Of a stretch of 64,000 bases of DNA, positions 4,858 to 30,223 are shown piece by piece (within the stretch, counting starts at the first letter, position 1; each line of letters starts with the position of its first letter). Below the pieces are notes generated by a model that searched no databases, was not told where the DNA came from, and saw nothing but the letters and a program-made list of their open reading frames with translations. The position numbers and the translations under genes are program-made. This stretch comes from Octopus sinensis (lineage: Eukaryota). Where the stretch lies: assembly GCF_006345805.1 (NCBI RefSeq), contig NC_042997.1:161572001-161636000 (forward strand), written 5' to 3'.

Positions 4858-5160
4858 CTTTTGTCTGGTAATATAGAACTGGTGATGAAGGTATTGTATG
4901 ACCTAGTGGATGTTCTCCACGGACGCGAAACATATAGTCTTTCGATTTAGAAAGACCTGTTACTTTGTATTTTGTGTCAGTTACACCACTTGCAACTGTT
5001 GACCAGTCATATTTAGGTGGCTCCTGTTTTTCAATCATAAATGTCAGTTGTCTGTCTCCTCCCACAATAGCAGGTATTTCAACACGAGCCCATCTTAAAG
5101 CAAGTGAGTCATGGTCAACATCTGTTATCTCTGGCCGCTGAGCTGGAGCACGTGGTATAA
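4858..5160 (-). CDS. Exon: FN3 #12
   Basis: PRAPAQRPEITDVDHDSLALRW...FMIEKQEPPKYDW...GLSKSKDYMFRVRGE; 303 nt; ends in a |gtgaga donor, so the gene continues. Confidence 0.93.
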
Positions 5161-6054
5161 CTGTAAAAAATAGTGATAATGGAAGTATGTAGATAACATA
5201 AATATTTTACAAATTAACACATTCAAAAAATTTATTATAATTTTTGTCTTCAGAAATCATGTAATCAACAATTTGAGAAAATAATGAATGTATAATTATT
5301 TTTTTTATTTGCATTGGAGAACTCTAATGATTTTCACAAATGTGAAGATATATATAATGATGTGTGTGCATGTGTGTTTCCAGATGATGAAACTCAGAGA
5401 AAAATTAGTAATATACATGCAATGTTAAATACTTAATTTTAACTGGATTTTAACTTTCACCTGATGTTTTTCATTAACAAATTTCCCAGCCCAACTTCAG
5501 AAGACAAAATTAAAGGGAAACAACTATCCTACCCTGCTATCAGGAGGAAAACAAAGGAAAAGAAAACTAGATACTAAGTAGATGATACAACACTAAATCA
5601 ATATACAACTATACATGTAAAAAATACAATTTGAATTTTAAAACATATCTGCTAAATTAAAAATAGTTAAAAGGCTATCAAGATTTTGCTTAAATTTTTT
5701 TTTATCTATTAGCAGTATCCATAGAAATTCTACTCCTTAAAATTCTCCCCACTTGGGAATATATCATGTCATTTCCGGCATAATCCATTGATTACTTTCT
5801 GGGTTTTTTTGCCTATAGTAGAAAGAGTTATTATGTGTGTGAGTGTGTGTATGTGCTAGTAGCATTTATTTGAATCTCACTTGTTTTATCACTGACATAC
5901 ATTTACCATTCAGTTTCTAAAGTATAACATTTTATACCACAGGATTCAATAATTAGCACTTAAATATAAGATATTTAAATAACATATGCCAAAACTAGTT
6001 ATAATATCTAAATATAAAAATGTTATATTTAAAGTATAACAAATAAGTTCAAAC

Positions 6055-6357
6055 CTGCAGATCTATAAAGAGCTACTGGATGTGAAGCCTCTAGACTTTC
6101 TCCAGACATTGTTTCAGGCCTGATTCGAAAATGATAATCACAGTTAGGTTTCAAGCCTGTGATTCTGTAGAAATTTTCAGTGACTCTTGTTGCATAACTT
6201 CTCCATTGATGACTTGGATATTCCCGAATTTCAATTGTATATCGCAACTGAATATTTGTATTATAAGATGAAATATAAAGCCGGCGCCATGATATCCAGA
6301 CAGCTTGTGGTTCAATACCATACAATTGAGGTTTTTCAATGGGGCATTGTGGAACAA
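6055..6357 (-). CDS. Exon: FN3 #11
   Basis: AVWISW...YTIEIREYPSHQW...GLKPNCDYHFRIRPE; 303 nt. Confidence 0.92.
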
Positions 6358-6537
6358 CTAAAACATAAAATGTAAAAGACATGTTACTTAAGCAAATAAT
6401 ATTACAACTTGATTAAAATTTTGTTATTTTTTTTTAAATCAGATAAAAATTATGCTCTGAATATTTTTGTCAGGAATGATATACTTAGAATCTTTTTCTC
6501 TTCTTTGAATAAAGAAATGATAGGAGGGTAATAACTG

Positions 6538-6993
6538 GTATAGTTATCATAATTAGAACTACTTAAATAATGTCATAATGAAGTAGTTAATTGTTAAACA
6601 GGTGCTTACAAAAATAAATTCATGATTTAGGCAAAGTTAAATATTTCCAGAAACACTAACATAAAAATATAAAAGAAAATGTTTAAAACTCCAATGCATA
6701 TATCTGTATATGTGTATACATAAATATATGTATGTGTGTGTGTGTGTGTGTATGTGTGTGTGTGTGTGCGTGTGCGTGCGTGCGTGTGTGTGTATGTATG
6801 TGTGTGTGTATGTATACACATATATAGATATATGTATTGGAGTTTTAAACCTTTTCTTTTGTATTTTTATGTTTGTGTATCTGGAAATATTTAACTTTGC
6901 CTAATTCATGAATTGATTTTTGTAAGCAGCTGTTTAACAATTAACTATTTCATTGTGACATTATTTAAGTAGTTCTAATTATGATAACTATAC
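6538..6993. repeat. Long inverted repeat, arms about 185 bp, with a (TG)n loop
   Basis: 6538 to about 6722 is the reverse complement of about 6809 to 6993, with about 11 mismatches and no indels seen. Confidence 0.95.
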
Positions 6994-7091
6994 TAAATAT
7001 GCTAAAATATTTGTTGCACCATTCTAAGTCAAGGCTCTAATCACTCGATCATCACTCTGTCTCCATTATTAGAATCTTGTGAGATACTTAC

Positions 7092-7385
7092 CTCTACTTC
7101 GACTGTATGACACAGGAATTGATGGTTCAATAGCAGAACTAGAACCTGTCTCAGCTCGAACTCGAAATAAGTAGTTACGTTTCGGTTTTAAGTCTGTTAA
7201 TTTGTAAGTAGTACTCCTCACACCGCCAACCACACGCTTCCATTCTCTTGAAGGAAGTTCTTGTGATTCAATAGCATATGTGTAATCTTTTCCAACAGAA
7301 GGTGCTCTTGTTGGTCTCCAAGACAGCTGAAAGCCTTTAGATTGGATATCAACTATCTCAGGGGTTTCAATAGGTCGTTTGTATT
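7092..7385 (-). CDS. Exon: FN3 #10
   Basis: GFQLSW...YAIESQELPSREW...DLKPKRNYLFRVRAE; 294 nt. Confidence 0.93.
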
Positions 7386-7940
7386 CTGAAACAAATTCAA
7401 TGTTATAATAATATAACTTGTGTAGCAAATGAACTGAACTTTAGTTTAAATCAGAATAATAGAATTAATTTATACTTGATGAACACAATGAAGTAAATTA
7501 ATGTTTCTTTTTCATATATTTTGTAAAAAGTGTAACAAAGAGCTCCATTCCCATATAATGTTGAAAATGATTTTAAAAGGCTTAGTTTAATCGTATTTAA
7601 GAGAAGCAGAAATTTCACAGGTCCTGTTCAAATTAGTTTATGTAAAAACCTTTACATGCTATTTGGTTGTTTATTAAAAAACATGAAAGTTCATACCAAC
7701 TACAGGCACTTAGAGATATGCTCTGATGAAAACATTCCTATTTATAATCAATTCTTAATAAAAACCTAAATGTAATTTTAAGAAAATTTTCATTTGCAGA
7801 AGTAGTGGGTTGATTTTCCCAGTTTAGTTAGTATTTTCCAATTTAACAAATAACAATATTGTTTAACACAAGTTGTGTGATTTCCATTATATTTAATTTA
7901 TGGAAGCACTTTAAAAATACAAAGGATGTGTTTTCCTTAC

Positions 7941-8243
7941 GGGAGATGGCAGGAACCCTTATTGCCATCGATGGTTCACTGACAGCAAATGACGTCTCAG
8001 CTTGAATTCGAAAGGTGTAATCTTTGTCAGTGCGTAATCCTGTTAAGTAGTATGACGTGTGTGGGATTTTAGTAACAAGTGGCCTCCATTTGGATGATGG
8101 AGAATCTTGAACATAAATACTATAAGTTATGGATATCTTGTCTCTTAAATATGATGGCAGGACTGCAACACGCCATGATAGACGAAGGGATCCAGGCTGA
8201 ACATCAGATATGACTGGTTCTTCATGAGGCATACAAGGTGGAA
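7941..8243 (-). CDS. Exon: FN3 #9
   Basis: PGSLRLSW...ITYSIYVQDSPSSKW...GLRTDKDYTFRIQAE...SEP; 303 nt. Confidence 0.93.
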
Positions 8244-8554
8244 CTAAAATAGAAGATCAATATAGCATTATTATAATTCATATATATATATATATATATA
8301 TATATAAACAGGAATAGGCATTCAAAGAATCAATCAGAGGAGCTCACAGTAAGCTGGTGTGCAGCTCTCAAGAAAACAGTGGCTGTGGCTAAGGTCTAAC
8401 TTCACTGACATTCTCATAAACCAAGAATCACAATGGTGAAGAGTATATAGCAATTAACAAGATAAGAAAAATGAGAGGAGAGATTCTATTTGTTGATAGC
8501 AATTAACAAACAGCTCTTCTCTCTCTGCTCTTATTTTGTTAATCATATATATAT

Positions 8555-9236
8555 CTACCCCTTGCAGATTTGACTGAAGAAAATCAGATGCCTTTGGCGC
8601 TAAATTTTAAATCATGATATCAAATTAACTGCCATTCCTCCTGCATACTTGGCAGATGTAAGATGCTACTCTTGTCCACTAAAATTTTTCTTATCACACC
8701 TGTATTAATTTAGTGATTTTTCTGTGGCTTAGAAGTATTTTGACTTCAATTTTTAGTGAAGCATGTGCTTATGTAGTACACTAGGAAATATAAATATATT
8801 TATATATCTTATATATCATTAATTTTGCCAAAACAGCTTCTATGGTCACTAATGTTATTATCTTTAGGAATAATATCGTTCATTTATATTTATAAATAAT
8901 TTCATATGGTTCATTTGTTTCAATGGTGTTCAGCCACTCAAACGAATTTACAGGCATGGTATTAGTGAATTCTAGTAGCTATCCCTTGCAGATCTGACTG
9001 AAGAGAATCAGGTGCCTTTGGTGCTAAATTCGAAATCATGATATCAAATTAACTGACATTCCTCCTGCATCCTTGGCAGAGGTAAGACGCTACTCTTGTT
9101 CACTAAAATTTTTCCTAACATACCTGTATTAATTTAGTGGCTTTTCTGTGGCTTAGAAGTATTTTGACTTCTATTTTTAGCAAAGCAGGTGCTTATGTAG
9201 TACCCTAGTGTATATAAATATATTTATGTCTTATAT
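8555..9236. repeat. Direct duplication of about 260 bp (8555-8815 and 8979-9236)
   Basis: CCCTTGCAGAT(T/C)TGACTGAAGA(A/G)AATCAG... through ...TCTTATATA present twice, roughly 85-90% identical by eye. Confidence 0.92.
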
Positions 9237-9429
9237 AGTATATATATATGGCAAATGTTTTTACTTTTCATTCCCTTCAAGATTTTATCCCTAATAGTGG
9301 TTTGGACTTTAGCTGTTCCTTCTAGCGTGAAAGGAATCCTGTGATGGATACCTCTTATGTGTTTAAATGTACACTGTATATATATATATATATATATGCA
9401 TACATACACACAAGTAAATTAAAATATTC

Positions 9430-10508
9430 ATATAAGTATTTCATGGATCTTATTGTCATGTATTATTAATATCAAAACAAGGTATTAGAAAAAAAATGTT
9501 TCTTTGACTCTATAGTTGTAAATATGAATTATTTTCATAATTTAAAATTTTACATCTATAATGAATTTCTATTTATATTAACTTTATCCAAACAGATTAA
9601 GAGATTCTCAAATTTCTTTTGATGTGACCCTATAAGAACAACTGTTGAGATAGAATGTTTCATTATTAAAAAAAGGAATAAAAATAATGCTAGATTATTA
9701 TTATAATAAGATCTTTTAAAAATTTTAATATTTCATGCAGTATAAATTTTAGATTAGAAAATAAAATAAAAACTATGTTATATGACCAGATTGTCTCAAT
9801 TTTGGAATTTTAATAAATTAAAATAAATCAGTATTTGATATCATACCTGCTCTTTTTCTAAGGATTAATGCACCAGTTGGTTCACTGATACCAAATTCAT
9901 TTTCAGCTCTAATACGGATAGCATATTCTTTATTTGGATGTAGATTATCCAACTTGAAAGCTGTTGTTGGTATACCTTTAGCAACAGTAACCCAGTGGCC
10001 AAAAGGTATTTCTTGTAACTCAATCCTGTAGGAAACTGGTGAATAATCAACAATTCTAGAGGGTATTTCAGCTGATCTCCAAGCTAAAGACACTGAATCA
10101 GAGGTTATATCAACAACATAGGGTATGTCTTTAGTCATCCGTGGAGGTCCTGTAAAACATGGAAGATATTAAAGAATCTTTATATGTCTCATTGCATCTT
10201 GGAAGATATTTGTAACTGTTACTATAAATAGATACATTTGTGTGTGTGTGAGAGAGAGAGATAAACATTTGATATCAATTTACAAGTTTAGGACAATATA
10301 ATCCTATTAACAAAATTCCCAAATTTAATGTTAAATAGGCATATATATTTTCCTTTCTGATGATGTCATATGAGCTACATATTGTTTACAAAAATACTTA
10401 ATTCGTTTTTGTCATATAAAGTTGCATCCATATTTTTCCAACTAATTTGCAATATAAGTATTTCATGGATCTTATTGTCATGTATTATTAATATCAAAAC
10501 AAGGTATT
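9430..10508. repeat. Exact 57-bp direct repeat (9430-9486 and 10452-10508)
   Basis: ATATAAGTATTTCATGGATCTTATTGTCATGTATTATTAATATCAAAACAAGGTATT occurs twice. Confidence 0.95.
9847..10149 (-). CDS. Exon: FN3 #8
   Basis: DSVSLAW...SYRIELQEIPFGHW...NLHPNKEYAIRIRAENEFGISEP; 303 nt. Confidence 0.93.
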
Positions 10509-11141
10509 TCTAGAAGAATGCACTGCATGAGCAAAACAGTTGTTGTAGATTATTTATAAAGGGTCAGTAGCTGTTCAAAGTTAAAATAGGCTGGCTTTTG
10601 AAAGGCAAACTCAGTTCTAGTAATGTGTGGTTTCCATAAAAAATTTAATTTTTTTACTGTTCATTTTTAAGATATTTCTTAATTATAATTTGTTCTTCAG
10701 TGAAAAAGTAGAAGCTTTGCTGTTGCAAAAGTAGTTCCTAAGTTCCTACTTCATATCCTCATTCAAGGTAAAGATGTACATTCAACAGGAATTGTTGAGG
10801 TTGCATGCAGTTTCAGTCAATGTGAGAGAAAGGAGAAAAGGGTGTGTATGTGAATGTTTGAGCATATGTGAGTGTGTGTGTGTGTGTGTGTGTTTAAGAG
10901 TGTGAGTGTGTGTTTGTGTAGTTGTAGACAGTAAAGTCATATAGAAAACATAATTATCATGTGGACTAATAAAAAAGTGGTATGCAAGAAAGCATAATCC
11001 ATGAAATTTAATTAAGTGTGCAATTAATAATGCTAAAATTGATAGTGGTGAGAAATAACAGCAGAAACGGAATAGAAATATGTGATTATTTCATTAAATT
11101 TCAATAACCTGTAACAATTAGTGAAATTAGTTTGAACCTAC

Positions 11142-11444
11142 CTGCACGTCTAGCCAAATACACAGGAAGTGTTGGCTCACTCAGATCTGATCCTATGTAA
11201 GCTCTAATGCGGAACAAATAGTCTCGATCTGGTAAAAGATTTGATACCTGGTAACTTAGAGTACTTATATCCCGAGCCAGAGGGTGCCATAATTCAGAAG
11301 GAGGTTCTTGAATTTCAATGAGGTACAGTAATTGACTGAGGCTCTTTGAATAACCACGGGGTAATCTGCCCTCTTTCCAGGACAGTTTTATAGATGTTGG
11401 GTGAATGTCAGACATATGTGGTTCATACAATGCCATTTGAGGAA
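11142..11444 (-). CDS. Exon: FN3 #7
   Basis: PTSIKLSW...YLIEIQEPPSELW...NLLPDRDYLFRIRAY...SEP; 303 nt. Confidence 0.93.
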
Positions 11445-13355
11445 CTGAAAACAGAAAATATATTACATCCTAGAGAATCTTCATTAAGTTGACTTTAAAC
11501 AGTTACCTTATTTATCAGATTTAATAATACTGCATTTTTATCTTTATTTACAGTTAATTTCGATGAAGCTGTTTCTTAGTGAGAAGAATGATTTGCAATG
11601 TATTAATTTAGCACTAACTGTTAGTAGCCTTTGGTTACTTGGGCAACAAGCTTTCCAAAGTTTATATAATTAGTTTTTCACCTACTTATTCTTATCATAT
11701 AACTCTTTTCCAATATAATGAATGAAACACATTTGAAATTGTTTGATCAGAATGTATTATAAACAATCAATGACTAATGTTTGTAAGCATTAAATTTTAC
11801 ATTATATTACAATATAATTTGATCCACAAAAATTCATTCATTTTTTGTTTTTACTTGTCAAAAAATGTAATTAATTCAGTACTTATATTCTTCAATAAAA
11901 ACATTCTTTTAGTCTACATACTATTTAAAGGCAACATTCAATTCTGCACTTACAAAATTAAGAACTTCAAAAACAAAAGTTTGATATTTCTAATGAAATC
12001 ATTATTCTGCTTTATACAGGAAAATTCAATGAATTTTGAGAAAATTACAAATTATGGACATAGAATATTACTTTCATTGTTTCTTAGTTAATAGTATTAA
12101 TATCTACTGCAACAAACTTGTTTGTAACATGTTGAATAATTTCCAGCATAAACTATATTAACTAACATATTAAAAAACATGGGAAGATCAATGTTTGAAC
12201 ATATGACAAGTGAATAAATGGATAGGAAAAAATACAAAGTGTCTTAAAAGTAAAAAGATACAAGGTTAACTATGAAAAACGACTAGAAGTTGAATTTTTA
12301 ACAAAGTGATAAGTAGAATTTAATAAAAAAAAATCTCTCTAGTTTATAGTTGTAGATATTTAATCTCTCTAGTTTATATTTGTAGCATCAAAACTTATTT
12401 TAACCATACAGGAAAAGTGATAATATATATTATTTATACAAACTTAACTTATTTAAAATTATTATATCAAATTGAAAACAACATTAATATAATATCTATA
12501 AATAGTGTAAACTTCCCAAAATATTACTTCCCTAATATTTCCAGAGATATAAGTCATTAGTTACTATATGCAGCTATGATTAACAAATGATTCAAATAAA
12601 ACAAATTATACTCATAACAATGAGTTTAAACACTTTTACAAATATTGTAGATGAACTATGCAAAATTACTCTACTAACTTTAGTGTCTGGACATCATTAG
12701 ATCCCAAATGGACTCTAATGAAGTAAAAGTCTGTTTGAGAGAAAATGATTGCTCCAGAACACTAATGTCAAGAGGCATGATAAAAAACAATATGACATGT
12801 AAATGAATTAGCATTTTAAAAACCTATGATAAAAATATAAGCAGTTTAAGCATTTAGAAATTTTGCACTAACTTAAGAACTTACAAAGATCAAAGGTGAC
12901 ACTTTATTTTTATAATATTTATAAAACATAATTTGCAATAGAAATGTTTATGATGGAGATACATAAGTAATTTTCATTTCCAAAATATTTTGAAGAATAT
13001 CGGCTAAATTTGTAAGCCATATTCTGCTACATAATTAAGAATTAAAGTATTTTGAATCAATTTTTTATATACAGTAGCTAAAAATATAAGAATATGACTA
13101 AGTGAAAATAGGAGTAAATACTTGACTAAAAGCTGTATCTCTGCTGAAAGCTTTTAGTGCAATTTTCATAAAATTAGTCTTCAAATAGTTTTGATAGAAT
13201 GTGTTTAAAAACTTTAATTTTCATATCTTAATTATTATAAGTTTATCTTTTCTGTATGAAAAGATAAGCTTATAATAATTGTATATACTTCAGAAAATCC
13301 TAACTATACGCTGAGTTGTAATGTTAACTGAAAATCATATTTAAAATTGTCTTAC

Positions 13356-13658
13356 CAGGTCTTCTTTGTAAAAGGACAGGGAATGTAGGTTCACTGATAC
13401 CACTGTCAGTTTGAGCTTGAATCCTGAATCGATAATCTCGGTCAGGCTTTAAGCCAATCACTCTATAGTTGAGCTGAGTTATTCTATTTGCCACTGGCAT
13501 CCATTCCATACTTGGATATTCTTGCATAAATATGCTATATGTAATTGGAGAACGGAGGTGTTGATAGGCTGGAACCTCAGCTTGCTTCCAAGATAGGTTA
13601 ACAGAATCATTCCCAAATGGTGAAAGGATAACATCTGTTCGGGAAAGTTTTGGTGGCA
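13356..13658 (-). CDS. Exon: FN3 #6
   Basis: DSVNLSW...ITYSIFMQEYPSMEW...GLKPDRDYRFRIQAQ...SEP; 303 nt. Confidence 0.93.
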
Positions 13659-14041
13659 CTGCAAAGCAATTGGAGCATGAATTAATTGTAAAGCACATAT
13701 ACTTATAATCTTATCAAATATTTTTAAAGTTGAACAAGAACAAAAAATTACCTGGAATCTAATATATCTATATATCTCATATTTTACTTACATATATCCA
13801 TTTTATTTGTTATTGAGTTGTCATACAAGTGGAGCATAAGAATATTTTGTTTGAAAGGCTGACTTCGGTACTGCCTGATTCTGATTTTAATTCAATGTTT
13901 ATTCATTTAAGCATAAGTAATATATTTGAATAAAGGATACAGTTGAAATGGATATATCTTAACGAAAGTTACTTTCCTCAAGACTTACTCTGATGAAAAC
14001 TACAAATATATAAGTTATAAATAAAAACCATAATTACTTAC

Positions 14042-14341
14042 CTGGTGTTCTATATAAGCCAATAGGTGGGGTTGGATCACTCAAACCTCCTTTTGTATTT
14101 GCACGTATCCTGAAAAAGTAATCATGATTTGGTGACAAATTTTTGATTCTGTAACTTGTTCCAGTTACTCCTCTGGCTATCTCATGCCAATGATATCCTG
14201 GTATGTCTTGTTGTTCAATAATATAATCAATCACTGGATACTCCACTTCATGTACTGGCCTTTTAATTAGATACCATCTTAACAATATATCAGGACGTTC
14301 TTCAAAGATTTCTAAATTATGGATTGGTGGCTGGATAGGAG
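14042..14341 (-). CDS. Exon: FN3 #5
   Basis: DILLRW...DYIIEQQDIPGYHW...NLSPNHDYFFRIRANTKGGLSDP; 300 nt. Confidence 0.93.
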
Positions 14342-14744
14342 CTAAAGTAAGAATAAATAAAAAATTAAATGTTTTGCAAAAAAGAAGTGGTAACAATTCA
14401 GTATATGTTAAAAAAAATTAATGGAGTTATATAATGTATTGAACTTTATTTTCAAGTCATAGAAAATGACAATTTGTCTAAGGCCAACAATAAAAAAAGA
14501 TTTCAAACTCAGTCCATACAAAATCTATTGAACTTAATAATTCCATAGACTATTAGGTTTCATTTCAGGATTGAGTGAGTTCAATAAAAACTTAATTTAC
14601 ATTGTATTTCAAACATTATCTTGTTAATGATAATTTTATCTAAATTTATGACTGTGTATAACCTGCAGTAATATGAATTCAAACTCTGCTACAAGCACTA
14701 TTTTATGCTCTTATGAAATATATATTTGTCTATCTGCTTAGCTA

Positions 14745-15570
14745 AAATTGAGTGTAAGCATTAAAGAATTATCCATTTATGTCTTCTTAAGTTCTAAATT
14801 CAGGTCCAGGTAGAGGTGATAACATGAGAACAGATCAAATTCTAGAGTTGGTCCTATCAACTTACCAACAAAGTCTTGGCTTTGTATCAGTGTAAGAGAT
14901 GATTATGAATTAAAGAAATAGGAGTGTTGAGTTGGCAAAATTATTAGAGCATCATACAAAATGCCTTATAGTATTTAGTTATAACATTTACATTTTAGTT
15001 TCAAATCCTACCAAGGTCAACCTCTGGAATTGATGAAATTAAAGTATCAGTTAAATGCTGATGTTGATTTAATCAATGTATTTCCTCCCAACAAATTGCC
15101 AGCTTTGTGTTTAATTTAGAAGCAACCAAATAAATGATACATGAAAAAAATAAAGAAGTTATTAAAAAAAAGTTTTAGTTGTAGTAGTTGTGGTATTAGG
15201 ATAGTAGATTAGCAGAATGATTAGGTGATCAGTAATAATCCTTTCTACTATAGGCACAAGGCCTGAATTTTTGGGAAGAAGCTAGTTGATTACACTGACC
15301 CTTATGCTCAAATGGTGCTTAATTGATTGAACCCTGAAAAGATGAAAGACAAAGTCAATCTCCGCAGCATTTGAATGCAGAATATAAAAGCAGATAAAAT
15401 ACTGCTAAGCATTCCATCTGACATGCATATGATTCTGTCAACTCATAGTCTTAATGTTTATGATAATGCATTAGTAATAATGGTTTCAAATTTTGGTGCA
15501 GGGCTAGCAGTTTTTGAGGAGAGGGGGACATTAATTATATCGACTCCAGTACTTGACTGATACTTATTTT
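14745..15570. mobile_element. Cluster of decayed tRNA-type SINE copies in both orientations (relatives near 2270-2450, 31110-31310, 49240-49420, 51150-51270, 53290-53490, 54300-54430, 57745-57900)
   Basis: Recurring motif GATGAAAGGCAAAGT(C/T)GACCT...GGAATTTGAACTCAGAA and its reverse complement. Confidence 0.7.
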
Positions 15571-15996
15571 AAAATTCAACAAATCATTACTTCTAAAGAT
15601 TACAATCACTTTTGCTTTTAAAATCTATTAAATTTTTTTAATTGGTGTTATGATGAATAGGTTTGCACATTTAAGACATTTGGATGAATTATTTTATTCA
15701 CTTTTCATGTTAGTTTATTAAACTTATCATTATTTTGTAGTCCTGCCAATAATGTTAACATTGTTTCTTGGAGATATTCATTTGGTTTGGATATGCTAAT
15801 CATAAAATTACCTATATTCTAGAGACTTTTCAATAAAAGTGAGCAAGCTTATTTTATCCATAAATTGGGGGGAAATAAATGTCAAATGGAGATCAATGAC
15901 GGAGAAAACAACAATTTTGATAAAAATATATTTAGGCACCAAATAAATTGGGAAAATTGTTAAACTTTAAAGGTAATTTTAATTTAGACTACTTAC

Positions 15997-16299
15997 ATGC
16001 AAACCTACGTAAAGCAACTGTTCTTGAAGGAGGGCTCAATCCATATTCACTTAAAGCTCTAACTCGGAAGTTGTAATCTCGAGCAGGAGTAATATCACCT
16101 AAATGGTAACTTGTTGTTGGTACACCACTGACGACTGGATGCCAGTCTGGATGAGGAGGCTGTTGTGATTCAATCATAAATAAAAGTGATCCATCACCAT
16201 CACCATAGCTAGGTATATCTGTTCTGCTCCATCTGAGATTTACAGTGCTTGGTTCATATTGTTCTATATCCAGATGATCAAGGGGGCTTTTACCTTTTG
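15997..16299 (-). CDS. Exon: FN3 #4
   Basis: PSTVNLRW...FMIESQQPPHPDW...ITPARDYNFRVRALSEYG; 303 nt. Confidence 0.93.
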
Positions 16300-16759
16300 C
16301 TGAAAATAAGTGCAATCCATACAAACAGTATTATATATGTATATAATTCTATTGTTTACCATCAAAATTGAAAATCCTGTTATCAATAATTGTTAAAATT
16401 ATGAAAAGTAATCATTGTGATGGCAATAAAATATACAATTGTGTAACGAATCTTAAAGGTAAAAAATTTAATTATTTTTGCTTGATCATCAATTTTGCAA
16501 AAAAATCATCGATATTAGTATTATTGATATCAATATAATATGAAAGTCACAAATTATATTTGATAAAACCTATTATACATTCATTCTCATGAACATTCTA
16601 CCAATTATTAGACAAGATGTATTTGTTGGTAAAAGTAGGTCTTTACATGTTATTCTGAATACCAAGTAAAAAGAAAATAACAAATAAATAAGCAAAAAAA
16701 GAATATATCAACTAAAAAGAGCACAAGAGCATTTTGCCTTCTGCTGGATGAAAATTTAC

Positions 16760-17062
16760 CCATAGTTCTGTACATATTTACAGGTGGTGATGGTTCAGTA
16801 ACTCCCAATGGAGAATATGCTCTCACTCGGAATCTATAATCTTTATTTGGCTCCAGCCCTTTGATAACGTAAGATGTGTCTGGTATTTTGGATGCATATT
16901 CACGCCATTTATGTTCAGGAGGTTGTTGTATTTCAATAATATATGTTAGCTCATCATCTGTGGCTCTGAAACTTGGTATGTGTAACCGATTCCATCGAAG
17001 ACGAATTGATGTTGGGTCAAGGTTTTCAATGTAAGGACGATCAACTGGTATACCAGGATATA
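16760..17062 (-). CDS. Exon: FN3 #3 (missed by the ORF track)
   Basis: YPGIPVDRPYIENLDPTSIRLRWNRLHIPSF...YIIEIQQPPEHKW...GLEPNKDYRFRVRAYSPLGVTEPS; 303 nt. Confidence 0.93.
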
Positions 17063-17649
17063 CTAAAATAGTAATTATAATGCAGAGAGAAACTCAATGA
17101 ACATAATATAAATAGAAATAGAAATAGAAAAAGAGTTTTAATGATAAATACAAATAAATCAGAATATATAATTTTGTAGTTGCAAACTATTACCTTAGAG
17201 GTAAATCTAAATTGATATATTTCACATTTTTATTACCAATTATTTGTTTACTTTTGTATTTCTCATGTTTGTGTTCATGACTGATTAAAAAGCTTTAGTA
17301 AATGTTATATAGTAATAACATTTTTGAAATTTTCAGAAAATCCATTTTCATATCAAAAGAAATAAAAAAAATAGTCAATTTTCTATGATACTGATCAAGG
17401 ATAAGGAATTTTAAAATTCTGCAGATATTATTTTATAACTGTAGTAATGGAAGAAAAACTGCCATAATTGAAAGAATGTTGAATATGTATTAAATTTAAA
17501 AGAAGGAGAAGAAGTGAAGAGACAAACCACTAGAGACATAGTGCATGCAAGGCAGATGACTACTTGAAATATACAAAAATGGAAAAAAACATATAAGAGG
17601 AAAGAATGAAGTAAGCTGGTGCTACAGAAAAAAGCACTTAGTACGTTCT

Positions 17650-17800
17650 GTAAAGTAGTTGATATTAGGAAGGGCATCCAACTGTAGAAACCATGCCAAA
17701 ACTAAGATGCAGGGGCAAAACTTGATACTCCAATAAGTTCAATCCTGTTAAACTGTCCATCCCATACCAGGATGGAAAGTGGTTATTAAAATGGTGGTGG
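17650..17800 (+). mobile_element. Older degenerate RTE 3' end, tail-to-tail with the 17832 copy
   Basis: gttgatattaggaagggcatccaactgtagaaaccatgccaaa...atggaaagtggttattaaa. Confidence 0.7.
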
Positions 17801-17831
17801 TGGAGGAAAGGAAAAAATAATATTTAGAACT

Positions 17832-19177
17832 CATCATCATCATCATCATCGTCGTTTAACGTCCGTTCTCCATGCTAGCATGGGTTGGACGGTTCGACCG
17901 GGGTTCTGGGAAGCCAGAAGGCTGCACCAGGCTCCAGTCTAATCTGGCAATGTTTCTACAGCTGGATGCCCTTCCTAACGCCAACCACTCCGTGAGTGTA
18001 GTGGGTGCTTTTTACGTGCCACCTGCACAGGTGCCAGGCGGGGCTGGCAACGGCCACGGTCAGATTGGTGTATTTTATGTGCCACCGGCACGGAAGCCAG
18101 TCGGCCACGAGTCGGATAGTGCTTTTTACGTACCACCAGACCAGGGATCCTGGCTGGTTCAATTCGATTTCGATTTCGCTTGCCCCAACATGTCTTCACA
18201 AGCAAAGGGGGTTGGCATGGGTGCCTGTCGTACGGTCGCATTGGAGTATTTTACGTGCCACGGCCACGAGTCGGATAGTGCTTTTTACGTACACCAGACC
18301 AGGGATCCTGGCTGGTTCAATTCGATTTCGATTTCGCTTGCCCCAACATGTCTTCACAAGCAAAGGGGGTTGGCATGGGTGCCTGTCGTACGGTCGCATT
18401 GGAGTATTTTACGTGCCACGGCCACGAGTCGGATAGTGCTTTTTACGTACCACCAGGCCAGGGATCCTGGCTGGTTCAATTCGGTTTCGATTTCGATTTC
18501 GCTTGCCCCAACATGTCTTCGCAAGCATGGGGGGTTGGCATGGGTGTCTGTCGTCGGATGAGGTTCTATATCGACTTCGCTTGCCTCAACCGGTCTTTGT
18601 GTCCAAGGGAGGAAAGGCATTCTCTCCTACCACATCACGATTCTCTCTCACACACTGTCTTGCAACACGAAATACCTCAAGTCTTTCATCCTCACGGCGC
18701 AGGACATTGGCAAATTTTCTCTTATCTGCTTCCCCTCTGGCTAGATAGACCTGTCTCCTAGCTTCCCTTCTGGCAGTCTGATACCCTTCCCTGCTACCAC
18801 CGTTCTTCCAGGCCTTCCAAGCCTGTTTCTTTTGTCTAATAGCCCTGTCAATAATATTGTTCCACCACCACGTTATTTTGGGTCTTAAGGGGACTTTGCA
18901 CCAGCCACAGATCTGGTCAGCGGCTTTCAGCAGGTTGTCCCTCAGAAACGTCCAGTTGTCTTCTACCCCATGTGTAGCTATACCCCCTTCCACTTCGTCA
19001 AAGGCTTCAAGTAACATATCTCTAAATCTCTGTCCATTCGCAGGGGCTTTAAGCTTCCAGACCCTTCTTCTCCATGTTGGTCGTCTTCTAGTCGCCCTCT
19101 TAGTCCTGATCCTAAAGTCACTAACTACCAGTCTATGTTGTGGGGTGCATTCTTCGCCTGGGAAGGTTTTGGCATTT
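17832..19177 (-). mobile_element. RTE-clade LINE, 5'-truncated and internally deleted, with (GAT)n tail
   Basis: ORF segment FPGEECTPQHRLVVSDF...TWWWN... (end of the AP endonuclease plus linker) joined directly to the 3' UTR; (CAT)n at 17832 on the plus strand. Confidence 0.9.
18103..18555. repeat. About 158-159-bp tandem repeat x about 2.8 within the RTE 3' UTR
   Basis: GGCCACGAGTCGGATAGTGCTTTTTACGTAC... starts at about 18103, 18262 and 18420; copies are nearly identical. Confidence 0.92.
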
Positions 19178-19845
19178 GCAATAAAATTCTTAAATAATAC
19201 AGTTCTCCTGCCTTTGGTGTGACAACATAAACACAATCAGGTATTTCTTCATTGAAAATGTTCAAATGGCCTTCAACTTCTTTTCTTCACTTTCTTCTTT
19301 GCCATTCTTTGTTACTATTGTTCAAGTACATGGGTGCTTCAACATAAAATAATGTTGTTGCAAAATCATCATTGATGCACGATGAAAAGAATTCTGTCAG
19401 TGTTATTCTTGTAAGTCATTCATTGACAGCCATATATATCCTCATTATTTCTGAGCAATATTCTTTGTTCATCTAGTAGATGAATTTGTAGTTTCACTAT
19501 TGCTGGTGCTCTTTCATGAATTGAAAATCCTAAGATGGATGTGACTGCTTTGGATGGTCCAATATACCTACCCATTAGTTATTGACTAATTTCATTATCA
19601 TTGTTTATTTGAACAGCAGCTTGATCATTTCCTTTCAGCTTGTACTTGATGACATACATAATTGACCTCACTGAGGCAATGATTTCAACATTTCAGTGGC
19701 ATTTGAATGCTCTTAAAAGAGTTTCATTATAAGGTACAACCCATTTGTTGCTTATTTTTCCATTCTTATGCGATTCAACTCCTCCAATTGCAACTAATCT
19801 TCATCTATAAAGAGATAATCTCTCTGACTGTTTCTCTGCCTTTTG
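19178..19845 (-). mobile_element. Decayed Helitron RepHel fragment
   Basis: Minus strand reads NKWVVPYNETLLRAFKCH*NVEIIASVRSIMYVIKYKLKGNDQA...GRYIGPSKA...GFSIHERAPAIVKLQIHL...GELYYLRILL, which are classic Helitron Rep-region motifs with stops. Confidence 0.88.
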
Positions 19846-20734
19846 AACAAGATGATAAAGATTAATATTCTATTTTAAATAAAATAGTAATTTTCCCCTT
19901 TAAGAAAAAAATCACGTACCCATGATTTAAAACATATCTCAATATAGGGAGAATTTCTCTTTCAGTTTATGGTGCTCAAAAGTTGTATAAATGATTAAAG
20001 GGAGAAAAAAAGAAAGTAAGAAAAAAGGATGGCCGAACGGTGGTAGCTACTTGATTTTTTTTTAAAGGGGGAAATGACAATTTTATTTGTAATCTTTATC
20101 ATCTTAATCAAATAACAGAAAAAAAAAACTTTTAGTTTTAGTATAATACAGATAGGAATAAATCCATCATTTATTCATCCCATAAGGACAAACTTGAAGG
20201 CAGACAGACAAACAACGGGGGAGATGTATATTGTATATATGTGTGTATATGTTTATTGTGTGCATGTGTATGCTTGTTGTCCATATGTACTTTTGTTCTT
20301 ATTTTGCCCAGCTTTAACTGTAATGGAGCTTATGATAAAAATTATTCCAGTTGTGTATCTCCTGCCCTTTGTATATGTGCAGAGAACACAGGACTACATT
20401 AGCCAACATGTCCTGTTTCAAGACAGAAGCTTATGAATTGAGAGAGATTTGGCTGCTACTTTTATGAGGTCTGGCTAAACTGTAAAAGCCATACAGACAG
20501 TAGAGTGCAATTTTTAAATTGATATAACTTCTACTTCTGATATGTTGAATGACTACAGAGGGATTCCATGGCAAAACAACTATTACAACAACAGCAACAA
20601 CATTATATTATTTAGTTATGAACTTTTAATTTTCTTTTGTATTTCATTTTACACATTGCTTAATCTACAGGTTTTAGTTTATTTCATTTGATTTGAATAA
20701 ATGTTTGCATGATAATGCATGTGCTTATATATAT

Positions 20735-20755
20735 CTGTATGTATGTGTGTGTGTG

Positions 20756-20787
<32 letters not shown>

Positions 20788-21300
20788 TGTATGTATTTAT
20801 TATTTCAAGTTTCTCCAGTCCACTCAGCTGGCAAAAATGAGTTGTACCTATGATTCAAAGGACCAACCCCATCACATTCTGTCATATTTCATATTGTCAT
20901 TCTGTCAATTTCGCTAAGAACTACATTGAGGGTATACATACCTGTGGAATACTCAGCCACCTACATATAAATTTCACAAGTAGGCTGTTTCATTGATCTG
21001 ATCAACTGGAATGTTTATCATTGTAACTGACCGAGTGCCAGTTTTGTGTGTGTGTGTGTGTGTGTGTACGCATGTGCATGTGTGCTCGCGCATGTGTGTA
21101 TGTCATTGTTCAGTTTTATTTCAAGATTTCTTGCCAATAAAGAAAGCCAGTTTCTAACCTAGATTCAAGGTCCTTCATTGGAATTTCAACATTAACAGCA
21201 GGGTATGTATGTATGTATGTATGTATGTATGTATGTATGTATGTATGTATGTATGTATGCATGCATGTATGTATGGATGCATGCATGCATGCATATATGT
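20735..21300. repeat. Cluster of (TATG)n, (TG)n and (TGCA)n microsatellites
   Basis: Runs at 20735-20795, 21045-21100 and 21203-21300. Confidence 0.9.
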
Positions 21301-22891
21301 ATATCATGCAAATTATAATGTTAATCAGAAGGACTGAAATGAATTTGAATATTTGAAAGAGTAGCTGTGAGAGAATTATAAGAGAAAGAATTCTCTGGAG
21401 GGACCAAATTAATTTTTTGTTACTGCTCCTCAGGGAAAGCATACCTAGTTTCCTTCCCCAATCAAGCATGGAATATTTATCTAATTTATTAAGTAGTTAT
21501 AAATTATGTTGTCACAATGGTGAAAAGTATAATTGGCATATTTATGTTTTTGACAACTCATCTTTTAATTAAATGATATATTTATTTTATGTGCAGCATA
21601 AATGTATACAGCATAAATATGTACAGCATAAATGTACAGCATAAATGTAAGGAACAAATTGAGGGTGTCTGGAGTGTTGGACAAGAGAAATTTTGCAAAT
21701 TGAAATAATTGTGAATATTAACTTCAGAGTGAGGTGAGACAGATCACTTCATTGAAGGACAAAAGATAATCAAACAGCTATACTTGTTTGGTGGTGTTCA
21801 CTAACTCATTAAGACAACCCATGAATTCGTAAGATGGAGTAAGAGACACTTTGAACAAAACAATTGGATATTTCAGTTACTAATAACTAAGTGAAAGAAG
21901 GGAAGGATGAGGAGAATATATTTTATGGATGACACAGACACCACTTTTGAGAATGAAGTTGGAATATGGAATGTCAGCTATTAAGGAAAATCAATGACAC
22001 ACTTCATTAACAAATGCATCAAACTCAACCATTACACATTGTCTTTAAAACAATGATTAAAGCAGATCTGAAACTTTGAAAAGGTTATCCATGTAAGTTA
22101 GAAATAAAAATAAAACAAGGAAAACATATACAAAAGAAAGCAAAAAATAGAGTGAATAATTTCAGAATAAAAAAGAAAAAGGAAAGCATACACAGCAATT
22201 ATTTTCAAAAATACATGACAAAATCTAAATAAAATATATTTTTGCTTTCTGTGAAATTTATAAACTAAGTCTTTTCTGTTCTATTGCAAAGACTGTTTTC
22301 AAAAGAGTTCTACTTATATTCGAAATTATTTTGGTCTCCTTACTAGGGAATAAATCAGCTAACATTGATAGACAGATCAGCTTTTGCTTCCCTTTTACTT
22401 CCTTTATTTCCTCTTGTATTTCCTACTTGAGGCAGATGTTAAGTCTCTATTGCTGAATGGCGAAATAACTTAAAGCAATTCATAGAAACATATGTGCTTG
22501 TACAAATGCATGTGTGTTTGTAAACAAAATGTCAATAGCAACATAAAAGTATGTCAGACAGGAGACTCGTGCACACACACACACTCACACACACACACTC
22601 ACACACACACACACACACACACATGAATACACCATCATCTTCAGTAGCAGCAGCATCAGTGTCATTGTCTTTTTAATGTCTAATTTTGCTTAAGTCAGAG
22701 ATTCTTTCTATGATTGGATTCAACCTTCATCTGTTTCCAAGCAAGGCAATAGTTGCCCTGAATGATTGTAAATAAATAATACCAATTATATGAACAGTGG
22801 TTCATTTATGTTACTGCTATGAACTATCCTGCAGGACTTGATTAACTATCTGAGAGGTAATCATGTATCTTTCCTCACCAGATATTCTGAG

Positions 22892-22927
<36 letters not shown>

Positions 22928-24398
22928 CATATATATATATACACATATCATTGTACTATGCTGTACTTCATTTGTATTCTTGTGTTTGCTCTTACTCTTA
23001 TTCTATTTGAAAGGAGAAACACAACTTAGCTATTCGTAACTGACTTTTATATGTATTAGCCCCACCAACCACTTAGACCCTCTGAAGAAGCCTAGGGGCA
23101 CATCTACTATCCAAGCCTTGTCTGCCCACCCCTGCATAACACTGAAGAGGTGGAGATAACCTGGAAGATTTCATTGCCTCTTGGCAGAAATAGTCATAAG
23201 GACCTAGCACCTGCACACCCATTTAGTTTTTTGCCAATTTGCTCATTTGCTCAATTGCTCATTTGTTTCTATATGCTTATATGTATTCACACCCTTGTTT
23301 ATGCAGTTACTAGCTTTTTCCACTCACTAATCTGTACCACTTATACATGTGTGTGTAGTCATCCAATACATTTGAATAAATAGACATACTGGAATGTTTA
23401 CCGGTTGATGTCTGTCAATTTTATATCCTCTCCGTTTTCTTATTTGCTATATATATATATATATATATACATACATTTCTAGATATGTATGTTCTCTCTT
23501 GTTTTAGTATATTAGTTATGCTATTGATGAGAGGGGTTTCATATACACAGGCAACTTAGAATTTTCATAATTACCTGCTCAAATTTTTTTACATATATTT
23601 GCAAAGTGCATGACTATAGACACACATAGATCCCTAGATTCACATATACATATCTTGCAGTATGTAATGCTAATTAAAATATTTTTATATTACCAACAAA
23701 ATTATTTTGAAGCCATTTGCATCCACATATATCTAAAGCTGCTTTATGTGTACATAAAGCAGCTTTAAATATAAATACACTATAAATATATTCAAAATAT
23801 TTTTGTATAAAATCACTCAGGCATGCCACATGCTTAAAATGATATTTAATCATTTTGATTATATTACCTGGATATTTCTCCCACTCAATGGATATTCCTG
23901 AAGACATAGAATATATCAACAAATAACAAGTGAAAAAATTCACCCTTTCTTAATAATAATATATAACATTATAAAAATGTTTCTCATCTGAAACAATGAT
24001 TTCTTACATCATTTTGTATCTTATTTGAACTAATTATATTGTAATTTTTTAAAATTAAACTTTAATTACCAATGTTTATGTTCCAAATTTTTAATTTGTT
24101 GCACTATTCATTTTAAACTGATAGTATTCTTGCCCTTAGGGGATAATGTTGAAAATATAAAGTTCACAAGTAAGTCTTGTATAAAACAAAATAGAACAAA
24201 ATACTTTTAGAGATATGTGAAAAGGATACATAGAATATTTAGCTATCTAAAGATTACTTAGACATTTAAAATGGTCATGAGACAACCAAAAGTTTATTTA
24301 TGAATAGCCAAGCAATGAAATTAAATCTAGTAAAGGATAACTGTTCTAAGAATGCTCAATAAAAGAAAATTGTTTCAATTTAAAAACTGAATTTTTAC

Positions 24399-24710
24399 CT
24401 TTAGCTCTTCTTAAAGTAATTGGATATGTAGGTTCACTTAGAACACCATGATCAATTTCTGCTCTGACTCGAATCATGTAGTCTTTTTCTGGATTTAAAC
24501 CATGAATATAATGACTAGTATCAGGTATACCACTTGCCAAAGGTATCCAGTCATTACTTGGAAGCTCAGAAATTTCCAACCTATAGGTATGTGGTGTATG
24601 CCTTCTTTTGCTACTTTCAGGAGTAAGTTGCATGGGTCTCCAAGCTAATCTCGTGGATTCTTCACCGAAATCTGGGAGTAGTGGTTTTGTCAAAGGAAAC
24701 GATGGCATAG
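24399..24710 (-). CDS. Exon: FN3 #2
   Basis: STRLAW...YRLE...W...GLNPEKDYMIRVRAE...SEP; 312 nt. Confidence 0.93.
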
Positions 24711-25426
24711 CTGAAAAGATTTAATATTTTAATTCCATAACTATTTAAGACCTCAAAGTCACAATTTAAATAACCTGAATTTATCAGCAAACATTATGAT
24801 CTTAAATTATGCACATGGAAAATGTGGAAATTTTTATAAAATATAAAATAACTTTTTGTTTAATATTAAAGATATTTTTCAAACATAAAGTCATACATTT
24901 AAGCATTTTAAATAATCATCTTTATATTTAAATTTTTAATTCAATTTCGAATTAATTGTGTATTCAACTTCTCTTTGTCATAATCAGAGATGGAGATGGG
25001 TTTACAAACTAGGGGTATACAAAGGTCTGTGAGGCTGAAGTTGAGAAGGAAGTGAGGTTAGATACTAAGAGGCTTCCTTACACATACACACACCCGTGAG
25101 TTTATTAATAGGAATACTGCAACCAGTGGATCCTCCCCATTTTCCTCACTAGTCATAATAATAATCATATACATTACTAACAGAAAAAATTGAAGTCAAA
25201 CAAATGCTTTGCAGTAGTTATTTTGTACTTTTGTAATCTAAGTTTAAATTCTGCTTCAGTCACTTCTTTTTTACTTATGATGAACCAATAATGTAATGTT
25301 GTCTGTTCAATGAAGAGCAGCCCTTGTTTCATAGAAATTAATCTTATGTCTAAAAAGGAAAATTATAATTGAAACAAGTTATGAAAATGTGTTTGTACCT
25401 CAAATATGATTTCTACTTTGACTTAC

Positions 25427-25726
25427 CAGTTCTTCTTGGCAGCATCACAGGTGCTGTTGGTTCTGAGGTAAAATTCTTATTTTCAGCTTTAATACGGAAC
25501 ATATATTCAGTATCAGGGTTCAGATTATCAAGATAGTGATCATTTCCCTTTATTCCAGATGCAAATGGCTTCCATGATCTGTGGGGTAATTCTCTACTCT
25601 CAATGCTATATGTAATTGGACCGACTTTAGAAGGAATATCAGCAGACACAGCTGGAACCCAAGAAAGCCTTGCAGAAGTTGGTTTGATATCAGACATAGA
25701 TGGACGACCTGCATAGCATCCAGAAA
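25427..25726 (-). CDS. Exon: FN3 #1
   Basis: PTSARLSW...ITYSIE...W...LDNLNPDTEYMFRIKAEN...SEP; 300 nt, phase 1/1. Confidence 0.9.
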
Positions 25727-27300: not shown

Positions 27301-27396
27301 TATCAGGGTAATCATCATATCTTTTATCTACAGGTATATCTGGTATAATGGTGGGTTTTGCATCAAATTTCTTTCTAGCAGGCATTTCATCTGGAA
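27301..27396 (-). CDS. Exon: Pro/Asp-rich linker between the Ig block and the FN3 array
   Basis: (I)PDEMPARKKFDAKPTIIPDIPVDKRYDDYPD; ttatag|...|gtaagt; 96 nt, phase 1/1. Confidence 0.8.
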
Positions 27397-28634: not shown

Positions 28635-28807
28635 TTTCAAAATTCAAACTTCCAGATGTAATAGCTCTTCCTGCTCTGTTGGTAATAACACATGCATACA
28701 TTCCAAGATCAGTAGGTTGGACATTCTCTATGCCCAAATAGCAGTTGCCTTCAAATTCAGTTAACTTAAAGCGTGGATCTGGTTGAAGAGGATATCCATC
28801 TTTTGTC
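28635..28807 (-). CDS. Exon: C-half of Ig5
   Basis: (W)TKDGYPLQPDPRFKL...CYLGIENVQPTDLGMYACVITNRAGRA. Confidence 0.92.
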
Positions 28808-28946
28808 CTGTGAAATATATCAAATATTTTTTTTTTAATTGCAATATATTTATTTTTTTATCCTGAAAACAATGCCTGTTACCAGGTTTATTAGTAAAGA
28901 ATTATCATTCATTCATTCATACATACATACATACATACATACATAC

Positions 28947-28990
<44 letters not shown>

Positions 28991-29351
28991 ATACAGGTTA
29001 CTGCAAGTGCAACCATAACTTGATGTTTGTATTTTCTCAGACAAGCTCACATAGATAAAAGTTGATTTCAATGATATAGAATTATCTCTTGAATAGGCTA
29101 TTTATTATGAAGATATGCCAATAATATATAAAGTAAAAGTGCTTTTATTACCTATGTTATAATTTTTTTTATTTTGTTAATCTGTTCACATATGTCTGTG
29201 GTTATCACACATAAGCTGAGATTAACTTACTTATAAAATCACTTAAAATTCAAAGTTTTATTTTTAGAATGGTGGTATAAGATGACCCCAAATTTTTAGT
29301 GTAAATTTTAGAATTTAAAGGTCATCTTATAAGTGTAAATATATAGTGTAT

Positions 29352-29407
<56 letters not shown>

Positions 29408-29409
<2 letters not shown>

Positions 29410-29735: not shown

Positions 29736-29774
29736 TATATATATATATATATTATATATATATATATATATATC

Positions 29775-30192: not shown

Positions 30193-30194
<2 letters not shown>
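29775..30194 (+). mobile_element. RTE LINE 3' end
   Basis: Same tail sequence (GTGGTTGGCGTTAGGAAGGGCATCCAGC...AACGGACGTTAAACGATGATGAT). Confidence 0.88.

Positions 30195-30223
<29 letters not shown>

What the first reader, a model, noticed from the sequence alone, without database searches (positions are those of the whole stretch)
4858..25726. Uninterrupted array of at least 12 one-exon-per-domain FN3 modules in an obscurin/UNC-89-like protein
Seen: 12 consecutive FN3 exons of 294-312 bp (eight exactly 303 bp), all phase 1 at both ends, with no Ig in between. They share an idiosyncratic signature: P..P.I...P.S..L.W, a long loop often containing IP(S/A), then Y.IE.QE.P...W, (G/N)L.P..DY.FR(I/V)RA and SEP..P(V/I). 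Known: C. elegans UNC-89, Drosophila Obscurin and vertebrate obscurin are Ig-dominated with only a few FN3 domains, while titin/twitchin FN3 domains sit in Ig-FN3 super-repeats and contact myosin. Inference: lineage-specific exon duplication built a long FN3 rod into this RhoGEF scaffold, possibly a thick-filament-binding segment suited to molluscan muscle. Symmetric phases mean any subset of exons could be skipped in frame, so rod length could be tuned by splicing.
Basis: partly seen in the sequence, partly recalled or inferred. Interest (0 to 1): 0.75.

Follow-up and report, generated by a model that had tools for sequence, protein, structure and literature searches.

The report
Obscurin with a long fibronectin rod
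This octopus muscle-scaffold gene (obscurin/UNC-89) carries a long run of fibronectin-type domains where flies, worms and horseshoe crabs have just one; snails, clams, a ribbon worm and a lamp shell share the run, which likely acts as a fixed-length spacer and marks a third, apparently undescribed, obscurin design.

Summary
Confirmed: 12 phase-1 FN3 exons on the minus strand (294-312 bp, eight of 303). They are the first 12 of a 16-domain run in the octopus obscurin/UNC-89 gene. The run is neither octopus- nor mollusc-specific: 16 in Argonauta and gastropods, 17 in most bivalves, 39 in a nemertean, at least 7 in a brachiopod, and largely matched position by position across molluscs. It groups with the single FN3 before kinase 1 of chelicerate and nematode UNC-89 (100/95), not with twitchin or projectin (AU test does not reject that rival, p=0.089), and lacks titin's PxxDGG motif. 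Spliced contigs from four runs show consecutive joins and no skipping in the five exons tested. So splice-tuned length is not supported; an old rod of nearly fixed length replacing the ecdysozoan Ig rod fits better. Function is untested. The architecture sits in public gene models under names such as titin-like; nine literature searches found no description of it.

The parts
62357..62676 (-). SH3 exon and start of DH (first modelled exon in the window; gene continues upstream)
44823..54694 (-). RhoGEF (DH) and PH exons (model exons 2-8)
39526..39762 (-). First Ig after PH (main exon)
37981..38920 (-). Exon with a 13-residue P/E/V/A/K tandem repeat, then start of Ig 2
28635..37125 (-). Exons of Ig 2-5 (model exons 13-17)
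27301..27396 (-). 96-bp linker exon between last Ig and FN3-1
25427..25726 (-). FN3-1 exon, 300 bp, phase 1/1
24399..24710 (-). FN3-2 exon, 312 bp
23868..23897 (-).
   Evidence: in O. bimaculoides and Argonauta models; RNA loose ends in 2 of 4 runs among the rows shown
16760..17062 (-). FN3-3 exon, 303 bp
15997..16299 (-). FN3-4 exon, 303 bp
14042..14341 (-). FN3-5 exon, 300 bp
13356..13658 (-). FN3-6 exon, 303 bp
11142..11444 (-). FN3-7 exon, 303 bp
9847..10149 (-). FN3-8 exon, 303 bp
   Evidence: joined to FN3-7 by loose ends in 4 of 4 runs
7941..8243 (-). FN3-9 exon, 303 bp
7092..7385 (-). FN3-10 exon, 294 bp
6055..6357 (-). FN3-11 exon, 303 bp
4858..5160 (-). FN3-12 exon, 303 bp; branch point between the short and the kinase-bearing form
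1057..1106 (-). Alternative terminal coding exon (16 residues and stop) giving a kinase-less form
   Evidence: 16 of 16 residues identical to the O. bimaculoides model end

Best explanation
The 12 exons are the first part of a 16-domain FN3 run in the octopus obscurin/UNC-89 gene, shared with other molluscs, a nemertean and a brachiopod; it likely arose by tandem duplication of the single FN3 exon before kinase 1 and likely serves as a semi-rigid spacer of nearly fixed length between the SH3-RhoGEF-PH module and the kinase pair. Shown: exons, reading frame, splicing of FN3-3 to FN3-8, domain strings in relatives, position-by-position matches. Inferred: origin from the pre-kinase FN3 early in lophotrochozoan history; the run takes the place of the Ig rod of ecdysozoan UNC-89; the SH3 end would anchor on the thick filament (by analogy with worm UNC-89 and paramyosin); the main splice choice is at the end of FN3-12 (stop, or go on to FN3-13 to 16 and the kinases), not skipping inside the run.
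For: All 8 lophotrochozoan non-kalirin hits found by SH3-DH-PH alone (6 species) carry the run. All 20 lophotrochozoan models examined do (16 in Argonauta and 5 gastropods, 16 partly broken hits in Batillaria, 17 in 6 bivalves, 15 in Mya, 39 in Lineus, 7 in a gappy Lingula model, 12/13/4 in models that end early). 9 of 9 vertebrate obscurins examined have 1-3 FN3, none in tandem; Tachypleus has 23 Ig + 1 FN3 and Trichinella 55 Ig + 1 FN3 there. Ig 6, 7, 8 of the lophotrochozoan proteins mostly match the Tachypleus Igs flanking kinase 1, fixing the position. Tree: run + ecdysozoan pre-kinase FN3 versus twitchin, projectin, interkinase and other FN3, 100/95 (78 rows); 99-100 SH-aLRT in two quick trees. 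Same-position triplets octopus/snail/oyster for FN3-1, 2, 3, 4, 6, 7, 8, 9, 10, 12 (support 87-99). Spacing about 97-107 residues through FN3-13, then 20-35 residue linkers, in nearly all molluscs checked. Domains from PH to kinase 1: 22-24 in 8 molluscs, 26 in Tachypleus. Consecutive CT..AC joints in 4 of 4 runs and no skip joint; one 5072-nt contig fits exon 12 to FN3-12 exactly by length. Oyster unc-89 marks adductor muscle nuclei (bioRxiv 10.64898/2026.05.15.723513, passage).
Against: No functional or localisation data for any member. Rod length is not universal (48 domains in Lineus, over 55 in Trichinella), and Lineus expanded on its own with a two-domain repeat. Each position has kept its own identity for a very long time, which a mere spacer would not need and which suggests binding partners. 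AU test does not reject grouping with twitchin/projectin (p 0.089); alignments are only about 106 columns. FN3-5, 11, 13-16 do not resolve cleanly by position. 12 of the 20 models were found by searching with the run itself. No RNA was laid on FN3-12 or beyond, so the joins to the terminal exon and to FN3-13 rest on gene models of relatives. Annelids and flatworms are untested (the Owenia model stops two Ig after PH).
Confidence: 0.6

Rival explanations
1. The run is a thick-filament binding strip: the FN3 domains lie along paramyosin or myosin rods, as titin's A-band FN3 do, possibly spanning about one 72.5-nm paramyosin repeat.
For: Count fixed at 16-17 and position-specific identity in molluscs; tight packing; paramyosin filaments have a 72.5-nm period (PMC12040844 passage); worm UNC-89 SH3 binds paramyosin (PMC4865318 abstract and passages); obscurin's myosin-binding domain is called unidentified (PMC12812942 section 5).
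Against: PxxDGG motif of titin A-band FN3 (PMC10665226 passage) in 0 of 12 window domains and 0 of 160 run domains, against 40 of 44 twitchin/projectin domains. At titin's 43 nm per 11 domains, 16-17 domains give about 63-66 nm, so the match needs the linkers; Lineus has 39; no shared charge pattern.
Confidence: 0.2
2. The run multiplies a docking site: the ancestral FN3 before kinase 1 helps bind a phosphatase and a LIM protein in worms, and 16 copies would form a signalling platform.
For: In C. elegans binding of SCPL-1 needs Fn-Ig-PK1 (PMC13242403 passage); the run descends from that FN3; exposed loops such as the long BC loop and the C-strand E-x-x-E-x-P stretch are kept.
Against: The worm interaction needs FN3, Ig and kinase together; only the last copy has those neighbours; loop sequences differ by position; the short form has no kinase.
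Confidence: 0.1
3. One reading: symmetric exons let splicing tune rod length between tissues.
For: All exons are phase 1/1 and multiples of three; vertebrate obscurin Ig exons are alternatively spliced (PMC12812942 passage).
Against: No skip joint in 4 of 4 runs over FN3-3 to FN3-7, while an unspliced intron contig at depth 8.8 against 531 was kept; five octopus models and Argonauta carry all 12; one domain per exon is also the rule in vertebrate OBSCN. Contigs drop rare variants and tissues are unknown, so minor skipping is not excluded.
Confidence: 0.06
4. The run came from twitchin/titin-type FN3 exons inserted into obscurin, not from obscurin's own FN3.
For: Best PDB sequence matches are titin A-band domains (27-41 bits each); AU p 0.089.
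Against: Best trees place it with the ecdysozoan pre-kinase FN3; Tachypleus FN3 scores 179 against the run, twitchin at most 137, projectin at most 152; motif absent; no invertebrate obscurin pre-kinase FN3 was seen among the 60 PDB rows shown.
Confidence: 0.04

Closest known systems
Ecdysozoan obscurin/UNC-89 (C. elegans UNC-89-B; Drosophila Obscurin; Tachypleus and Trichinella models)
   Same: SH3-DH-PH, then a long domain rod, FN3-Ig-Ig-kinase 1, spacer, Ig-FN3-kinase 2; kinase-bearing and kinase-less forms (worm UNC-89-A/E lack kinases, PMC4865318 passage).
   Different: Rod is 5 Ig + 16-17 FN3 (7 Ig + 39 FN3 in Lineus) instead of 23-55 Ig + 1 FN3; UNC-89-B has 53 Ig and 2 Fn3. Many Ig and often a second SH3 lie before the RhoGEF. 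By motif kinase 1 looks intact and kinase 2 lacks the catalytic Asp, the reverse of fly and worm.
Vertebrate obscurin A/B
   Same: SH3-DH-PH, Ig repeats before it, optional kinase pair, mostly one domain per exon.
   Different: 1-3 FN3 in total, none in tandem; only 2-3 Ig between PH and kinase 1.
Titin A-band, twitchin, projectin
   Same: FN3-rich intracellular muscle giants; same fold; database names of many orthologues are titin-like or twitchin-like.
   Different: They use Ig-FN3 super-repeats with the PxxDGG loop and one kinase, without RhoGEF; this run has no Ig inside and a longer BC loop (15-16 against 13 residues).

Membership tests
Obscurin/UNC-89 | SH3-DH-PH triplet | tested here: met
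   Pfam SH3_2, RhoGEF, PH on P0003, exons in the window; best non-lophotrochozoan giant hits are obscurins
Obscurin/UNC-89 | Tandem I-set Ig domains | tested here: met
Obscurin/UNC-89 | Two C-terminal kinases with Ig-FN3 between them, in the same gene | tested here: met
   Colinear exons 162-200 kb downstream match the Argonauta model, which holds RhoGEF, run and both kinases in one chain. The join was not seen in RNA from this genome.
Obscurin/UNC-89 | Location at the thick-filament centre (M-line) | not testable with these tools
   Only muscle-cell expression of oyster unc-89 in a preprint passage
Ecdysozoan-type obscurin (PMC12812942) | Many Ig domains between RhoGEF and kinases | tested here: not met
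   7 Ig and 16 FN3
Ecdysozoan-type obscurin | Kinase 1 a pseudokinase, kinase 2 canonical | tested here: not met
   By motif only: kinase 1 keeps H-x-D-x-K-x-x-N and DFG, kinase 2 has Asn for Asp, in this genome and 5 of 5 relatives; activity not tested
Chordate-type obscurin | Ig array before the RhoGEF, short link to the kinases | tested here: inconclusive
   Octopus models have 16-23 Ig before SH3, other molluscs 1-3; the link to the kinases is long
Titin A-band / twitchin / projectin | Ig-FN3 super-repeats | tested here: not met
   No Ig inside the run
Titin A-band / twitchin / projectin | PxxDGG BC-loop motif | tested here: not met
   0 of 12 and 0 of 160 against 40 of 44
Titin A-band / twitchin / projectin | Binds myosin filaments | not testable with these tools
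   no binding data

The most novel reading that the evidence does not exclude
Lophotrochozoans built a titin-like thick-filament ruler a second time, from obscurin's own pre-kinase FN3: a 16-17 domain rod, unchanged in length since snails, clams and cephalopods split, that lies along paramyosin-cored filaments for about one 72.5-nm repeat and positions an active kinase 1, with a kinase-less 12-domain form made by an alternative last exon.
Probability: 0.15. Interest if true: 0.8.

Novelty: new variant of a known kind. Interest (0 to 1): 0.5.

Why it matters
A 2026 review recognises two bilaterian obscurin types, ecdysozoan and chordate (PMC12812942 section 5). This is a third design across at least three lophotrochozoan phyla, hidden under titin-like and twitchin-like names. 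It shows a whole Ig rod being exchanged for an FN3 rod grown from one domain, gives a candidate scaffold for paramyosin-rich molluscan muscle (catch and obliquely striated types), and offers a natural test of obscurin's unidentified thick-filament binding site. It is an architectural variant of a known gene, and its function is unproven.

Tried and rejected
Octopus- or mollusc-specific expansion: rejected. Separate gene for the FN3 exons: rejected by the open 32-exon frame and contig lengths. Hidden FN3 in the 7.3-kb FN2-FN3 gap: none; it holds the microexon and repeats. A loose end at 13549 in 3 of 4 runs is an 18-base exact match between FN3-1 and FN3-6, not a joint. Contigs of X1 and X3 end 3 bases past FN3-12; those bases are shared by the intron and both next exons, so this does not show which exon follows. 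The X6 contig length would end at a microsatellite behind the terminal exon: a hint only. No RNA holder was on record as RNA; the spliced joints are the evidence. A frog FN3 fell inside the run on a long branch and was dropped, with 17 oyster and 3 Lingula rows, from the careful tree. Hemichordate, echinoderm and amphioxus SH3-DH-PH proteins without the run were not counted as obscurins, because the amphioxus kinase reads like the Bf_MYLK2 row in a supplement. ESM Atlas gave only generic FN3 clusters. Ig 1-5 could not be matched to particular ecdysozoan Igs. Earlier scan findings: none. Steinmetz 2012 could not be opened.
Full report
OBSERVATION. The window is G000:C1:161572001-161636000 of a 2.7-Gb genome. 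They are 24-46% identical as protein and 46-60% as DNA. Exon 3 folds as an FN3 sandwich (pLDDT 89). A 32-exon model of the window (SH3, DH, PH, Ig, repeat, 4 Ig, linker, 12 FN3, terminal exon) gives 2535 residues without internal stop, 2522 of 2532 identical to an O. vulgaris model, so the animal is a close relative of O. vulgaris. The same 12 domains are in public O. bimaculoides models named titin-like and obscurin-like.

A 30-bp microexon at 23897-23868 separates FN3-2 and FN3-3, and a terminal exon at 1106-1057 ends the octopus models after FN3-12. In 200 kb fetched downstream the Argonauta model maps colinearly: FN3-13 (L006:2411-2719), a linker exon, FN3-14 (L014), FN3-15 (L015), FN3-16 (L016), two Ig, kinase 1, spacer, Ig, FN3 and the start of kinase 2, all FN3 exons again phase 1/1. 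The gene therefore has a 12-FN3 kinase-less form and a 16-FN3 kinase-bearing form by gene models; worm UNC-89 has the same two classes (PMC4865318, abstract and passages seen).

TRANSCRIPTS. Contigs of 4 of 24 listed runs (four studies, two organism labels) were laid on 11000-17200, which holds 5 of the 12 exons. All four show the four consecutive joints FN3-3 to FN3-7 at depth about 330-920 and loose ends into FN3-8; two show the microexon among the rows displayed. No exon-skipping joint is listed. One 5072-nt contig (X3) equals 195 nt of the repeat exon plus exons 13-31 plus 3 nt; a contig of X1 has the same 2051 nt upstream of FN3-3 (arithmetic). This ties the run to the Ig exons. Limits: contigs drop rare variants, tissues are unknown, and FN3-1, 2, 8-12 are covered by length or loose ends only.

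DISTRIBUTION. A search with SH3-DH-PH alone (120 of 262 hits listed) gave 8 lophotrochozoan non-kalirin proteins of 6 species; all 8 carry the run. A search with the Littorina run and kinase (27 hits) added 12 molluscan models. Of 20 lophotrochozoan models examined: 16 FN3 before Ig-Ig-kinase in Argonauta, Littorina, Babylonia, Nucella, Physella, Bulinus and (partly broken hits) Batillaria; 17 in Saccostrea, C. virginica, Argopecten, Mizuhopecten, Mytilus, Tegillarca; 15 in Mya; 39 in the nemertean Lineus; 7 in a gappy Lingula model; 12, 12, 13 and 4 in models that end early. Nine of nine vertebrate obscurins examined have 1-3 FN3. Tachypleus has 23 Ig and one FN3, Trichinella 55 Ig and one FN3 at this place. 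Owenia is partial and annelids and flatworms remain open. Domain strings come from my own profiles built on these proteins, cross-checked with Pfam for three.

AGE AND ORIGIN. Octopus, snail and oyster domains group by position for FN3-1, 2, 3, 4, 6, 7, 8, 9, 10 and 12; the bivalve extra domain is a doubling near position 5; positions 5, 11 and 13-16 are not cleanly resolved. The molluscan run thus predates the split of the three classes (over 500 million years, recalled). Lineus domains do not match by position and show an alternating two-domain repeat. The alternative grouping with twitchin/projectin is 17 log-likelihood units worse but not rejected (AU p 0.089). The titin PxxDGG loop motif (PMC10665226, passages seen) is in 0 of 160 run domains and 40 of 44 twitchin/projectin domains.

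HOW IT LIKELY WORKS. Shown: tight spacing of about 100 residues through FN3-13 and longer linkers around the last three; 22-24 domains from PH to kinase 1 in 8 molluscs against 26 in Tachypleus, but 48 in Lineus. Inferred: a semi-rigid rod of nearly fixed length that replaces the Ig rod and holds the kinases away from the SH3-RhoGEF end, which in worms binds paramyosin. Oyster unc-89 is an adductor muscle marker (bioRxiv 10.64898/2026.05.15.723513, one passage). I give 0.6 to this reading overall (about 0.9 for identity and origin, about 0.6 for spacer as main role). Rivals: a filament-binding strip or ruler (0.2; the 72.5-nm paramyosin period from PMC12040844, passages is only loosely matched: 16-17 domains at titin's 3.9 nm give 63-66 nm); a multiplied docking site (0.1; worm Fn-Ig-PK1 binds SCPL-1, PMC13242403 passages); splice-tuned length (0.06); origin from twitchin (0.04).

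WHAT IS IN PRINT. Nine full-text searches (seven aimed at this architecture, two at background) listed no paper describing an FN3 run in molluscan or lophotrochozoan obscurin; I saw listings and abstract starts for most. The 2026 review PMC12812942 (section 5 and passages; 'mollus' 0 times; figure not visible) names two bilaterian types. PMC12198301 (section 14, passages, supplement 1 legends, supplement search) uses oyster OBSCN kinases in a tree but its text and legends give no domain string for it. PMC10129394 (passages) states kinase 1 is a pseudokinase in invertebrates. PMC8945602 mentions UNC-89 only in a reference. Subscription journals are largely not covered, so prior description cannot be excluded.

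VERDICT. Real, transcribed and old. A new variant of a known gene family: a lophotrochozoan obscurin type with an FN3 rod. Interest 0.5.

Noticed in passing
L018-L020 (kinase exons, about 171-200 kb downstream of the window): Kinase 1 keeps canonical catalytic motifs while kinase 2 has Asn in place of the catalytic Asp, in this genome and in Argonauta, Littorina, Saccostrea, Argopecten and Lineus; fly and worm are described the other way round. Tachypleus looks degenerate in both.
   Followed up: partly
L014:6808-7122 and L014:8008-8322: The FN3-14 exon is present twice, 1200 bp apart, with an exact 733-bp match; Argonauta has one copy. Likely an assembly artefact or a very recent duplication.
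   Followed up: partly
window 37981-38920 (-): One exon encodes about 20 copies of a 13-residue Pro/Glu/Val/Ala/Lys repeat, PEVK-like in make-up (label recalled); the gap at this place differs among models (325, 283 and 212 residues in three cephalopods, up to 1317 in a snail).
   Followed up: no
window 23868-23897 (-): The extra linker lies between FN3-2 and FN3-3 in cephalopods but between FN3-1 and FN3-2 in gastropods and bivalves.
   Followed up: partly
window 1-4857 and downstream loci L001-L013: Introns inside FN3-1 to 12 are 0.4-2 kb apart from the FN2-FN3 gap, but the introns after FN3-12 and FN3-13 are about 62 and 68 kb; the size jump coincides with the alternative last exon.
   Followed up: no
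L005:8399-9448 (-): An open 350-residue frame in the intron after FN3-12 that resembles a Tc1/mariner transposase (name from recall, not scanned).
   Followed up: no
window 18589-19236 (-): A LINE-like reverse-transcriptase-associated fragment in the FN2-FN3 intron (name from recall, not scanned).
   Followed up: no
proteins P0157, P0207: Hemichordate and amphioxus proteins with SH3-DH-PH-Ig-Ig-kinase; the amphioxus kinase reads like the Bf_MYLK2 row in a supplement of PMC12198301, suggesting a myosin light chain kinase gene with an obscurin-like RhoGEF module.
   Followed up: no
protein P0012 (Lineus): The 39-FN3 run has an alternating two-domain repeat in its middle, an independent expansion.
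   Followed up: partly
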